A stretch of 64,000 nucleotides of DNA from a virus (taxonomy: Duplodnaviria > Caudoviricetes): the IMG/VR virus record IMGVR_UViG_3300007177_000042, one strand, 5' to 3'. The translations under genes were made by a program, and so were the position numbers. How positions within the stretch are numbered: the stretch's first letter is position 1; the number at the start of each line of letters is the position of its first letter. Shown piece by piece: positions 8,763 to 31,726 of this stretch. Below the pieces are notes generated by a model. The model made no database searches, had not been told where the DNA came from, and worked only from the letters and a program-made list of their open reading frames with translations.

Positions 8763-8912
8763 TAGCAAGATAACAGATAGACGCCGAACCTGTTGGTTGT
8801 AAAAGGTGACGCACACCGCCGTCGCGGGGGTCCACGTTCAATTCGTGGTAGGTTCGTAGGGAACATACGGCCATCCTTAAATGGAGAGTCGGTGAAATCC
8901 TGAAACTTGCTA
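8763..8912 (+). ncRNA. wwAGA/GAAC/GTGAAATC motif RNA, copy 1
   Basis: TAGCAAG/CTTGCTA outer helix; CAG-ATAGA-[CGAACCT...AGGTTCG]-GAAC-[...]-GTGAAATC-CTG. Confidence 0.65.
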
Positions 8913-30116: not shown

Positions 30117-30516
30117 TTTCAGAGCACAATTCAATGTTGGGTTGCTAACCTACCAAAACAAATTGATGGACGACCTTGGGAATTGTCGTGTTTTATGATT
30201 TGTTTACTGTTCGACAATAACATTGAATGTAATTTACGCCCGGAGCATATCCGATAAATAGGAGGACTGATAAGAAACCTCGCCAAAAGCGAAACTTGTA
30301 AAGTACCGGCGACGATTTTAGATGTTGACAAAACGAAAGGTTGTGTTAACATGGTTTTAGGTTAGTTGAGTCCGATACCTTAGATTAAAAACTCAACGGC
30401 AGTTTACAAGTTACACGCCAAAAAAAACTTGTCCAGTGATGGGAGATCAATCACCGGTTTTGTGGTTTAACGGCTAAACCACACGGATTTTTTGTTAGTT
30501 CTTTTTGAAATTTAAT

Positions 30517-30593
30517 TGCGGGGTGGAGCAGCCTGGTAGCTCGCTACGCTCATAACGTAGAGGTCGCTGGTTCAAATCCAGCCCCCGCAACCA
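30517..30593 (+). tRNA. Initiator-like tRNA-Met(CAU)
   Basis: fMet body TGCGGGGTGGAGCAGCCTGGTAGCTCG; anticodon stem lacks the three G-C pairs. Confidence 0.9.
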
Positions 30594-30599
30594 ATTTAT

Positions 30600-30693
30600 G
30601 GTCCTGTAGTTTAATCGGTAAAACCCCATACTTATGATATGGTAATCGCTAGATTGGCGTAAATTCTCGGTTCGAATCCGGGCGGGACTACCA
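30600..30693 (+). tRNA. tRNA-Ile(UAU) with long variable arm
   Basis: CCATA-CTTATGA-TATGG; V arm CGCTA-GAT-TGGCG; 94 nt. Confidence 0.8.
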
Positions 30694-30792
30694 CTTTCAA
30701 ACACATAGGGACGGGTTCAAGGTCCGTCGCTCTCTCAAATCAATGAGGAGACGTGGTGTAGGTAGGAAGCATAATGAGTTTGATAACAATTT

Positions 30793-30956
30793 GACCGTGT
30801 AATGGAATTAGACATACGGATGACAGGTAGCATGGAGTACGAGGCTCTGGGTGGTTCCAGAGTACAGTTGAATAAAACCATGTCTGTCAGACGGGTGCTA
30901 GATATAGCCTGACCAGCCTTGAAACTAGTTATAGGTAGCCAATCCTATCACGGTCC
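30793..30956 (+). ncRNA. tRNA-scaffolded RNA carrying a variant of the repeated motif
   Basis: GACCGTG/CACGGTC; Leu/Ser-like D arm; T-like ATAGG/CCTAT; insert TGACAG/CTGTCA; CTAG-ATATAG-CCT-GACC-AGCC-TTGAAA-CTAG. Confidence 0.6.
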
Positions 30957-30965
30957 ACAATTTAC

Positions 30966-31048
30966 GGGTATGTGACGGAATGGCAGACGTAGTTGACTCA
31001 AAATCAACCGCCGAAAGGCGTGGGGGTTCGACTCCCTCCATACCCACC
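30966..31048 (+). tRNA. tRNA-Leu(CAA)
   Basis: Loop CTCAAAA, V arm. Confidence 0.95.
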
Positions 31049-31120
31049 AATTTATATGACAACATGCGAATATACTTCTACTCGTTTTTTATGTAGGTAA
31101 ATTCAAGCAATAACGCTTGG

Positions 31121-31516
31121 ATGCCACATGAAAACATGAGAAATCCAAACAAATATTACAGAAACAAAAACGCAAAGAAAAACGCACGCCGTCGTGCTTT
31201 TTCTATTAACGGAGGCGAATTTGCCTATCGAAGCTATATGCCATATTGTTTTTGGCCTGGCTGTAAAGACTATTCACACGAAGAACAATTGAAAGATCAC
31301 ATCGAATATATCGAGACTCATTGGGTTCGATCTTTTCTTAATGGTAATCGACGCGGTGCTTTTCACGCACCAAAATGGTTTCGTCAATACATTGAACGAC
31401 GCGAACGTCACATCGTGAATCAAAAAGTTCGGAATGTTTCTAAACTTCACAACGAAGATATTGACGAATACGAGTTTCCAATGTATAAACATAATGCTGA
31501 TTGGGATTGGTTTTGA
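31121..31516 (+). CDS. Basic hypothetical protein
   Basis: ORF track; HAPKWFR motif. Confidence 0.6.
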   Translation: MPHENMRNPNKYYRNKNAKKNARRRAFSINGGEFAYRSYMPYCFWPGCKDYSHEEQLKDHIEYIETHWVRSFLNGNRRGAFHAPKWFRQYIERRERHIVNQKVRNVSKLHNEDIDEYEFPMYKHNADWDWF

Positions 31517-31607: not shown

Positions 31608-31617
31608 AATTTCTTAT

Positions 31618-31692
31618 GCCTCATAAACATAGATAGCGATGTGATAGTTTCGTAAACTATAAAGTACAGTGCAAGTCTGTAATGAGGCTCCA
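31618..31692 (+). tRNA. tRNA-Thr(CGU)
   Basis: Loop TTCGTAA. Confidence 0.85.
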
Positions 31693-31697
31693 ATTTT

Positions 31698-31726
31698 GCC
31701 CAGAAACTTTGTTTCTGGGTTTTTTT
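31698..31726 (+). terminator. Intrinsic terminator ending the first tRNA operon
   Basis: CCCAGAAAC-tttg-TTTCTGGG followed by a T tract. Confidence 0.8.

What the first reader, a model, noticed from the sequence alone, without database searches (positions are those of the whole stretch)
30793..30956. tRNA scaffold carrying both a long insert and an L1-stalk-like variant of the repeated module
Seen: acceptor GACCGTG/CACGGTC, a Leu/Ser-like D arm, a nested insert (TGACAG/CTGTCA, CATGG/CCATG, CTCTGG/CCAGAG), then CTAG-ATATAG-CCT-GACC-AGCC-TTGAAA-CTAG in the variable-arm position. This links the tRNA-scaffold class to the module family.
Basis: partly seen in the sequence, partly recalled or inferred. 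Interest (0 to 1): 0.7.

Follow-up and report, generated by a model that had tools for sequence, protein, structure and literature searches.

The report
Anticodon-less tRNA-shaped phage RNA
A freshwater giant phage carries, inside its tRNA gene array, a conserved 164-base RNA with the ends of a tRNA but no anticodon or CCA end. It is a real, uncatalogued structured RNA of unknown job, and its proposed kinship with a repeated "elbow-binding" module in the same genome did not hold up.

Summary
The element is a real, conserved RNA gene. I found 34 further copies (24 distinct full-length sequences, window included) on freshwater phage and metagenome contigs. The proposed fold pairs in 99.4% of cells, and 13 pairs show compensatory changes, against 0-2 in slid controls. 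Covariation supports the 7-bp acceptor stem, the T stem and all three main helices of the 77-nt long arm.

It is not a decoding tRNA. ARAGORN and the Rfam tRNA model do not call it. It has no anticodon arm, its T loop is 8-9 nt, and it encodes ACA where 35 of 36 neighbouring genes encode CCA.

A covariance model of the module scores this segment 6.6 bits, while window noise reaches 13.8 bits. Of the two T-loop signatures, only UGAAA is kept.

New here:
- one contig carries a hairpin-less 89-nt form, with ACGG direct repeats at the deletion site;
- the unit moves as a cassette between several contexts;
- the invariant UGGUU apical loop could kiss the RACCA variable-arm loop.

The closest known analogues are the phage T4 stable RNAs C and D. 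This scan had already found the same family on other DNA (e1-5392557, e1-5411003), with the same reading.

The parts
30793..30799 (+). Acceptor-like stem, 5' strand (GACCGTG)
   Evidence: Pairs with 30949-30955. Pair 3-163 occurs as CG (10), UA (10) and UG (4) among 24 sequences.
30802..30815 (+). Class II-like D arm (ATG / GAATTAGA / CAT), preceded by the UA connector at 30800-30801
   Evidence: Invariant in all homologues, so there is no covariation. The loop resembles the neighbouring tRNA-Leu(CAA) D loop but lacks its GG.
30817..30893 (+). 77-nt long arm in the anticodon-arm position: CG base, tandem G.A, three helices, an asymmetric internal loop, an apical loop
   Evidence: Nine of its 24 pairs show compensatory changes and the apical helix is almost wholly replaced between clades. 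It is absent from contig L047, where the site reads ACGG|GTG.
30852..30856 (+). Invariant apical loop bases UGGUU
   Evidence: Unchanged in 24/24 sequences while the closing helix changes. Complementary to RACCA at 30911-30915.
30868..30877 (+). 3' side of the conserved internal loop (UUGAAUAAAA; UUGAAUCAAA in most relatives)
   Evidence: Largely conserved, unpaired in the consensus fold. It contains a second UUGAA motif. Role unknown.
30898..30928 (+). Variable-arm domain: CUAG / AUAUAG-N-[YURACCA]-N'-CC-UUGAAA / CUAG
   Evidence: Flanking motifs are invariant. N-N' (30908/30916) occurs as CG (15), UA (6), AU (1), with 2 mismatches. The module model gives 6.6 bits. RNAalifold prefers an alternative local fold, GGU/ACC + GCUA/UAGC, that has no covariation.
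30931..30948 (+). T-like arm: 5-bp stem with an 8-nt loop (8-9 nt in relatives)
   Evidence: Two stem pairs switch AU<->GC. The loop keeps CCA-R-U on its 3' side but is not the canonical UUCRANY.
30949..30955 (+). Acceptor-like stem, 3' strand (CACGGTC)
30956..30963 (+). 3' tail C-ACA-ATTT: no encoded CCA, then the array's ATTT spacer
   Evidence: Relatives read (C/T/-)ACA, AAA, ACG, ATA or TTT. 35 of 36 ARAGORN-called genes in the window encode CCA.

Best explanation
This is the gene for a non-decoding, tRNA-shaped small RNA of a clade of freshwater giant (T4-like) phages. Shown: it keeps a tRNA-like acceptor stem, T-like arm and class II-like D arm. A 77-nt arm maintained by compensatory changes sits where the anticodon arm should be. 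A 31-nt conserved loop domain sits where a long variable arm would be. It lacks an anticodon and an encoded CCA, and it travels as a unit between different neighbours in tRNA arrays. Inferred: it is transcribed with the neighbouring tRNAs on the + strand. RNase P cuts it out at G30793, because the acceptor/T-arm minihelix is the minimal RNase P substrate, and it is trimmed at the 3' side. It then accumulates as a stable RNA that is neither charged nor used in decoding. Most likely, and least certain: it acts as a tRNA mimic or scaffold that occupies a tRNA-binding factor, either a host tRNA-directed enzyme or defence protein or part of the phage's own RNA-processing machinery. The specific surface would be the long arm and the variable-arm loop, which may be locked together by a UGGUU:RACCA loop-loop contact.
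For: - Conservation and structure: 35 copies, 25 distinct. The fold pairs in 99.4% of cells, with 13 compensatory pairs, 0/500 shuffles as high and slid controls at 0-2.
- Strand: G.U pairs are fixed (38-92 in 23/24 sequences), so the + strand is the RNA.
- Not a tRNA: no ARAGORN call and no Rfam hit, even at E<=10 on the element alone.
- No CCA, against 35/36 neighbours that encode it.
- Cassette behaviour: at least 8 upstream and at least 6 downstream contexts. Contigs from two RNA-library studies join 30784 to 30960 and skip exactly this unit.
- RNA-library contigs cover the element. One 202-nt contig at depth 47.6 is confined to it.
- Kissing loops: 4 invariant Watson-Crick pairs, plus U65 opposite G (13) or A (10).
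- T4 rnaC folds into the same general layout: terminal stem, long hairpins, T arm.
Against: - No direct evidence of processing, stability or any partner. The RNA-library contigs could derive from DNA and cannot show ends.
- The loop-loop contact has no compensatory change. Random loops of these sizes reach 5 consecutive pairs in about 4% of trials, uncorrected for the other loops.
- The family is shallow (94% mean column identity). The D stem, the CUAG stem and all loop motifs are therefore untested by covariation, and part of the module's invariance is forced by the search pattern I used.
- One natural variant (L047) lacks the whole long arm, so that arm may be dispensable.
Confidence: 0.55

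Rival explanations
1. [quoted passage not shown] The RNA would then be a tRNA scaffold carrying a tRNA-elbow-binding device, homologous to that family.
For: It shares the CUAG closing stem with two core copies (20053, 21912) and an AUA start. It has an invariant UGAAA, which fits the UG..A T-loop signature. In about half of the relatives AG-N-Y-U-A fits the L1-type AG..(U)A pattern. The core copies themselves mostly fit AG..A + UG..A.
Against: Module model R1 scores the segment 6.6 bits, below at least 18 chance hits in the window (9.2-13.8 bits), and aligns only stem + AUA. The would-be closing A of T-loop 1 is G in the window and varies G/A/C, whereas that residue is among the six near-invariant core residues of the motif. 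The third base of that putative T-loop covaries with a base downstream as a Watson-Crick pair. The motif does not predict this at that register. The G of GACC is not conserved.
Confidence: 0.08
2. A processing punctuation element. The tRNA-like ends exist only so that RNase P and 3' nucleases cut the polycistronic transcript here, as with plant mitochondrial t-elements. This would define the ends of neighbouring RNAs such as the ~100-nt unit at 30694-30792.
For: The acceptor/T-arm minihelix is kept by covariation. In the window and in the L039 group the element follows a non-tRNA spacer RNA that has no tRNA-like end of its own.
Against: In most contexts it directly follows an ordinary tRNA that needs no help. 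A mere cutting signal would not need a 77-nt arm kept by nine compensatory pairs, or invariant loop motifs.
Confidence: 0.15
3. A tRNA interrupted by an intron-like or mobile hairpin. Removing the 76-nt insert, at the RNA or DNA level, would yield a functional ~89-nt tRNA-like molecule whose 7-nt loop YU-RAC-CA acts as a (Val-like) anticodon loop.
For: L047 carries exactly the insert-less form, and the insert is flanked by ACGG direct repeats. The loop has Y32-U33-like bases and varies only at the wobble-like position: GAC, AAC or CAC.
Against: Neither ARAGORN nor the Rfam tRNA model recognises the insert-less form as a tRNA, even at E<=10. Its putative anticodon stem has only 2 pairs, position 37 would be C, and six extra bases precede the arm. 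At 76 nt the insert is far too short for a group I intron, and no intron family matched. L047 is nested in the L014/L050 clade, so by parsimony its state is a derived deletion. The insert's helices evolve by compensatory change, as in a functional RNA arm.
Confidence: 0.05
4. A decaying pseudogene of a class II tRNA (Leu-like) with no function of its own.
For: It has lost the CCA, the anticodon, the canonical T loop and the D-loop GG. No tRNA model scores it.
Against: It is kept in about 35 contigs from many samples and contexts, with 13 compensatory pairs and long invariant loop motifs. Neutral decay would break the helices.
Confidence: 0.04

Closest known systems
Phage T4 RNA C (species 1 RNA, rnaC) and RNA D (rnaD), small stable RNAs of the T4 tRNA gene cluster
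   Same: They are encoded in a T4-type phage tRNA cluster, on the same strand as the tRNAs. rnaC folds with a terminal stem, long non-tRNA hairpins and a T arm next to the 3' strand. They do not decode and their function is still unknown (annotation in NC_000866; own knowledge).
   Different: There is no sequence similarity, only a 7-mer. T4 rnaC keeps a canonical GGUUCGAAUCC T arm, whereas this RNA has an 8-9-nt non-canonical T loop. Arm architecture and loop motifs differ.
Class II tRNA (tRNA-Leu), e.g. the neighbouring tRNA-Leu(CAA) at 30966-31049
   Same: A 7-bp acceptor, a 2-nt connector, a 3-bp D stem with a GAAU..AGA loop, a long extra arm before the T arm, and a T stem abutting the acceptor 3' strand.
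   Different: There is no 5-bp/7-nt anticodon arm, no D-loop GG, no UUCRANY T loop and no encoded CCA. tRNA models do not detect it.
[quoted passage not shown] 2013, PMC3664808)
   Same: An invariant UGAAA (UG..A signature) close to a closing stem, and an AG-starting stretch upstream.
   Different: The first T-loop signature AG..A is not kept: the closing base is G/A/C. There is no structural evidence, and the segment does not score with the model of the window's module family, which fits the signature better.
T-box antiterminator bulge UGGN and RNase P L15 GGU, which pair with the tRNA 3' NCCA end (own knowledge)
   Same: The invariant apical UGGU is complementary to ACCA, the commonest 3' end of this phage's tRNAs.
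   Different: Here an internal RACCA loop offers an intramolecular partner. No other T-box or RNase P feature is present, and Rfam gives no hit.
Bacterial Y RNA-like YrlA (RF02553), tmRNA and plant mitochondrial t-elements: other tRNA mimics
   Same: They reuse tRNA-like arms for recognition by tRNA-handling factors.
   Different: No Rfam match to YrlA or tmRNA at this place. In YrlA the RNA ends lie in the Ro-binding stem, not in the acceptor-like stem (own knowledge). The element has no tag reading frame and no G3:U70.

Membership tests
tRNA (Rfam RF00005 / ARAGORN) | Scores at or above the tRNA covariance model's gathering score (29 bits), or is called by ARAGORN | tested here: not met
   No hit at gathering, at E<=5 on 25 kb or at E<=10 on 196 nt. 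Not among the 36 ARAGORN genes. The insert-less form in L047 is not called either.
tRNA (Rfam RF00005 / ARAGORN) | 7-bp acceptor stem contiguous with a 5-bp T stem | tested here: met
   Both are supported by compensatory changes.
tRNA (Rfam RF00005 / ARAGORN) | Anticodon arm (5 bp + 7-nt loop) after position 26 | tested here: not met
   A 77-nt arm with a UGGU(U) apical loop occupies the place.
tRNA (Rfam RF00005 / ARAGORN) | 3' CCA (encoded, as in this array) | tested here: not met
   ACA in the window, and no CCA across the family. 35/36 neighbours encode CCA. Post-transcriptional addition cannot be tested. No CCA-adding enzyme gene was found in the 108-kb record, which is only 31% complete.
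Window's 8-copy module family (stem-WWAGA-hairpin-GAMC-N-GTGARATC-stem) | Scores above background with a covariance model of the core copies | tested here: not met
   R1 gives seeds 35-46 bits, window noise up to 13.8 bits and the segment 6.6 bits. The model was built from 5 of the 8 copies.
Window's 8-copy module family (stem-WWAGA-hairpin-GAMC-N-GTGARATC-stem) | The three conserved single-stranded blocks | tested here: not met
   AUAUAG-N instead of WWAGA. The G of GACC is not conserved (RACC, C once). UUGAAAC instead of GUGARAUC.
[quoted passage not shown] | Second T loop with the UG..A signature | tested here: met
   UGAAA is invariant in 24/24 sequences. Definition from PMC3664808.
[quoted passage not shown] | First T loop with the AG..A signature (optionally with an extra U, as in the L1 stalk) | tested here: not met
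   The window reads AGCCUG. The closing base is G in 13, A in 10 and C in 1 sequence.
[quoted passage not shown] | Interdigitated three-dimensional fold that stacks on the tRNA elbow | not testable with these tools
   Needs structure determination or probing.
T4-type stable tRNA-like RNAs (rnaC/rnaD) | Non-decoding RNA gene inside a phage tRNA cluster with tRNA-like terminal stem and T arm | tested here: met
T4-type stable tRNA-like RNAs (rnaC/rnaD) | Sequence homology to T4 rnaC or rnaD | tested here: not met
   blastn-short finds only a 7-nt match.
T4-type stable tRNA-like RNAs (rnaC/rnaD) | Accumulates as a discrete stable RNA | tested here: inconclusive
   Contigs from RNA libraries cover the element, one of them confined to it. 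Contigs cannot show ends and may derive from DNA.
Intron-bearing tRNA (group I intron) | An insert with a group I core, and a bona fide tRNA once the insert is removed | tested here: not met
   The 76-nt insert matches no intron family. The insert-less natural form is not a tRNA by either program.

The most novel reading that the evidence does not exclude
The RNA is a trans-acting tRNA-binding device rather than a passive mimic. Its invariant UGGU apical loop would pair with the ACCA 3' end of uncharged tRNAs, as the T-box antiterminator bulge and RNase P L15 do. The internal RACCA loop would be a built-in competitor that masks it. The two UUGAA motifs (long-arm internal loop and variable-arm domain) would form a T-loop platform for the tRNA elbow. 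A tRNA-shaped phage RNA would then sense or sequester uncharged tRNA during infection.
Probability: 0.06. Interest if true: 0.8.

Novelty: new member of a known kind. Interest (0 to 1): 0.42.

Why it matters
Large phages with big tRNA arrays also carry tRNA-shaped RNAs that cannot decode. The T4 examples have had no assigned function since the 1970s. This family offers a well-defined, structure-supported case: a natural arm-less variant, cassette mobility and two invariant complementary loops. That gives concrete handles for asking what such RNAs do, for example tRNA mimicry against host tRNA-directed defences, or a role in the phage's own RNA processing. The negative result matters too. The window's repeated T-loop-like module should not be extended to this RNA on present evidence.

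Tried and rejected
- Search with the neighbouring 131-aa ORF (31121-31516) in viral contigs found no relatives.
- blastn against phage records found only the flanking ordinary tRNAs.
- blastn-short of the insert, the module and the whole element against the window found no paralogue.
- Viral scans with three other anchors returned the same four contigs, or unrelated coding DNA. L004-L007, L009 and L061-L066 are spurious. In the metagenome scan, 19 of 49 hits were unrelated.
- My first fold_alignment used wrong coordinates for several loci. It was replaced by A4.
- MAFFT could not align module copy 18579, and copies 8774 and 25731 carry long inserts. R1 was therefore built from 5 copies. It detects 18579 and 25731 only at noise level (12.4 and 10.0 bits) and misses 8774. 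The model is insensitive to insert-bearing copies, but the segment in question is compact.
- No PF01743 CCA-adding enzyme in the 108-kb record, which is only 31% complete, so this is uninformative.
- RNA run X17 laid nothing. Uncovered bins in the RNA runs are not evidence of absence.
- Rejected: tmRNA (no tag frame, no G3:U70, no Rfam hit), YrlA (no Rfam hit at this place) and small ORFs on the minus strand (30735-30881, 30925-31065; the fixed G.U pairs point to a + strand RNA).
- The tandem G.A at the base of the long arm is not conserved (AA/GA, GA/UA and other forms in relatives), so I dropped a K-turn or loop-E-like reading.

Full report
CONTEXT. The window is part of a 108-kb virus record (G000, window = C1:40906-104905) from a freshwater giant phage. 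It holds 35 tRNA genes and a tmRNA (ARAGORN), plus a GOLLD RNA (Rfam). Nearly every unit of the array ends in N-CCA followed by an ATTT-like spacer. The finding lies between tRNA-Ile(UAU) (30600-30693), a ~100-nt spacer, and tRNA-Leu(CAA) (30966-31049). A terminator-like hairpin at 30461-30483 precedes the tRNA-Met gene at 30517. The next + strand terminator-like site that is not inside the 31121-31516 ORF is at 31698-31720.

OBSERVATION.
- Acceptor: 30793-30799 with 30949-30955.
- Connector UA: 30800-30801.
- D arm: ATG / GAATTAGA / CAT, 30802-30815.
- Long arm: 30817-30893, built of CG/CG, a tandem G.A, UGACAG/CUGUCA, GCAUGG/CCAUGU and CUCUGG/CCAGAG.
- Linker GGUG.
- CUAG...CUAG segment: 30898-30928.
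- T-like arm: ATAGG / 8-nt loop / CCTAT, 30931-30948.

The single-sequence fold reproduces this, but its z-score is only -2.25. The case therefore rests on comparison.

HOMOLOGUES.
- Exact-pattern scans found four IMG/VR contigs: L001, L003, L008, L010.
- One metagenome scan, anchored on a 17-mer at the start of the variable-arm domain, found 30 further true copies among 49 hits.
- Together with the window this makes 35 copies and 25 distinct sequences.
- The alignment of the 24 full-length distinct sequences (A4) has 94% mean column identity, so the family is shallow.
- The invariance of the 17-mer is partly forced by the search. The invariance of the D arm, the apical loop and CCUUGAAACUAG is not.

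STRUCTURE TEST. I wrote a 45-pair structure and counted it on A4.
- 99.4% of cells pair, and 13 pairs show changes on both sides (45 cells).
- No shuffle out of 500 reaches these values. Sliding the 3' partners by 1-3 columns leaves 0-2 such pairs and 24-42% pairing.
- Compensatory changes support the acceptor stem (pair 3-163: CG, UA, UG), all three main helices of the long arm and the T stem (two AU<->GC switches). The apical helix is nearly replaced between the window/L052 type and the rest.
- One pair inside the variable-arm domain, 30908-30916, occurs as CG (15), UA (6) and AU (1), with 2 mismatches.
- The D stem and the CUAG/CUAG stem never vary, so they are neither supported nor contradicted.
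- RNAalifold prefers a different local fold for the start of the variable-arm domain (GGU/ACC plus GCUA/UAGC). That fold also lacks covariation, so the secondary structure of this domain is unresolved apart from the N-N' pair.
- Fixed G.U pairs show that the + strand is the RNA.

WHAT IT IS NOT.
- It is not a tRNA by any program. ARAGORN does not call it. Rfam gives no tRNA hit at gathering, at E<=5 on 25 kb, or at E<=10 on the 196-nt stretch.
- No other Rfam family matches. The only entry is a chance snoRNA hit on the opposite strand.
- There is no anticodon arm.
- The T loop has 8-9 nt. It keeps only C-C-A-R-U on its 3' side.
- The D loop lacks the GG of the neighbouring tRNA-Leu.
- The 3' tail reads C-ACA-ATTT. 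Relatives have (C/T/-)ACA, AAA, ACG, ATA or TTT and never a conserved CCA. By contrast, 35 of the 36 genes ARAGORN calls in the window encode CCA. The exception is the tRNA-like piece inside GOLLD.

THE MODULE CLAIM.
- Earlier notes of this scan place the repeated module at 8774, 18579, 20053, 21912, 22451, 25731, 27582 and 38651. I confirmed these copies.
- I built a covariance model from the five compact copies (A2, R1).
- With filters off on the whole window it recovers its seeds at 35-46 bits. Chance hits reach 13.8 bits. The segment 30898-30928 is not listed at E<=10.
- Searched on 30780-30970 alone, the segment scores 6.6 bits. Only the CUAG stem and AUA are aligned, and the interior is skipped as a local end. 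A stretch on the opposite strand scores higher, at 7.7 bits.
The caveats are that three insert-bearing copies could not be used, and that the model sees two of them only at noise level.
[quoted passage not shown] That definition requires six highly conserved residues, AG..A in the first loop and UG..A in the second, with an extra U in the L1 stalk's first loop (Lehmann et al. 2013, PMC3664808).
- UGAAA is invariant here and fits the second loop.
- The candidate first loop is AG-N-Y-U-R. The closing base is G in the window and varies among relatives: G (13), A (10), C (1). Its third base covaries as a Watson-Crick pair with a base four positions before the second loop, which is not the register of the motif's platform pair.
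- The core copies fit AG..A + UG..A better, in 5 of 8. That is a matter for the other finding.
- Conclusion: the resemblance is limited to a closing stem, AUA and UGAAA. Kinship is not supported.

NEW OBSERVATIONS.
(a) An insert-less form. Contig L047 carries an 89-nt form that lacks the long arm precisely. The site reads ACGG|GTG, and in filled copies the 76-nt insert is flanked by ACGG direct repeats. L047's flanks and scaffold are those of the L014/L050 clade, whose other members have the arm. Every other clade has it too. By parsimony L047 is a derived deletion, not the ancestral empty site. Neither ARAGORN nor Rfam calls the 89-nt form a tRNA.

(b) Cassette behaviour. The unit sits in at least eight upstream and six downstream contexts. 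Contigs from RNA libraries of two studies join 30784 to 30960 with one G between. They skip exactly the unit, between two ATTT spacers. This is presence/absence of the whole cassette.

(c) Two complementary loops. The apical loop bases UGGUU (30852-30856) are invariant while their helix is replaced. The 7-nt loop of the variable-arm domain is Y-U-R-A-C-C-A, with ACCA invariant. The two are complementary over 5 positions: four invariant Watson-Crick pairs, plus U opposite G or A. That would explain why this position is a purine in 23 of 24 sequences. There is no compensatory change. Random loops of these sizes reach a 5-pair run in 3.9% of trials, before correction for other loops. I therefore treat it as a hypothesis.

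(d) Coverage in RNA libraries. Contigs from RNA libraries cover the element. One 397-nt contig bridges it and tRNA-Leu. One 202-nt contig at depth 47.6 is confined to it and is circularly permuted. Contigs cannot show ends or exclude DNA, so this is only weak support for expression.

EXPLANATION.
- Shown: this is a conserved, structure-constrained, + strand RNA gene with tRNA-like ends. It cannot decode and does not encode CCA.
- Inferred from established RNase P biology: the acceptor/T-arm minihelix suffices as a substrate. The RNA would therefore be released from the polycistronic tRNA transcript like its neighbours and would persist as a stable small RNA.
- Most likely function, held with low certainty: a tRNA mimic or scaffold that engages a tRNA-binding factor through the long arm and the variable-arm loop.
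Each is weighed in its own section of this report.

COMPARISON WITH WHAT IS KNOWN.
- The nearest described things are T4 RNA C and RNA D, which are annotated in the T4 tRNA cluster.
- T4 rnaC folds with a terminal stem, long hairpins and a canonical T arm, which is the same general plan. There is no sequence similarity.
- The family is not in Rfam.
- This scan had already met the same family on two other genomes. One (e1-5392557) was followed up and read as an anticodon-less tRNA-Leu-derived phage RNA lacking the corner and the CCA end. The other (e1-5411003) is a first-reader note. My results agree with these notes, but they are not independent evidence.

VERDICT. The tRNA-scaffold reading is supported. 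The link to the module or the L1 stalk is not supported. The element is a new member of a known kind, the phage-encoded non-decoding tRNA-like stable RNAs. Interest is moderate.

Noticed in passing
window 30790-30930, RNA run X15 contig: A 202-nt contig from a metatranscriptome (depth 47.6) is a circular permutation of the element. Its 3' end ...CACGGTC-CACT joins TTT-GACCGTG..., giving a ~171-nt cycle. It could be a tandem duplication arising by unequal exchange at the shared CCAC microhomology, or a circular or concatenated RNA. This is unresolved.
   Followed up: partly
window 30785-30959: Contigs from RNA libraries of two studies join 30784 to 30960 with a single G between. They lack the whole unit between two ATTT spacers, so the cassette shows presence/absence polymorphism among related phages.
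   Followed up: partly
window 30694-30792: A ~100-nt spacer between tRNA-Ile and the element holds a T-arm-like hairpin (GACGG / GTTCAAGGT / CCGTC). Its 3' 30 nt also precede the element in the L039 group of contigs, and relatives of the spacer are covered by contigs in RNA libraries. It may be another small RNA.
   Followed up: no
window 30600-30693; L047 4736-4829: tRNA-Ile(UAU) is 94 nt long, with a ~21-nt insert in the variable region (shown by the cmscan alignment of the L047 copy). This is unusual for an Ile tRNA, which is normally class I.
   Followed up: no
L010, L014, L024, L025, L047, L050: the ~90 nt after the element: In this clade a second tRNA-like RNA follows. It starts GGGTATGTG, has a canonical GTTCGAATC T loop, ends ATACCC and lacks CCA. 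It shares the 10-mer TACTTGGAGT with the long arm of the element.
   Followed up: no
L047 4639-4731 (-): A natural 89-nt variant of the element lacks the 76-nt long arm. The deletion lies between ACGG direct repeats, and there is one extra T>G change before the T stem.
   Followed up: yes
window 8774, 18579, 20053, 21912, 22451, 25731, 27582, 38651: All eight module copies share WWAGA and GTGARATC. Five of them read AG..A + UG..A, the published double T-loop signature. Copies 8774 and 25731 carry T-arm-like inserts. This is the subject of another finding.
   Followed up: partly
window 31615-31696 and 31698-31720: A tRNA-like unit with a non-canonical T loop (GTGCAAGTC) ends in CCAATTT and is followed directly by a strong terminator-like hairpin (10 pairs plus a T run). 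This probably marks the end of the transcription unit.
   Followed up: no
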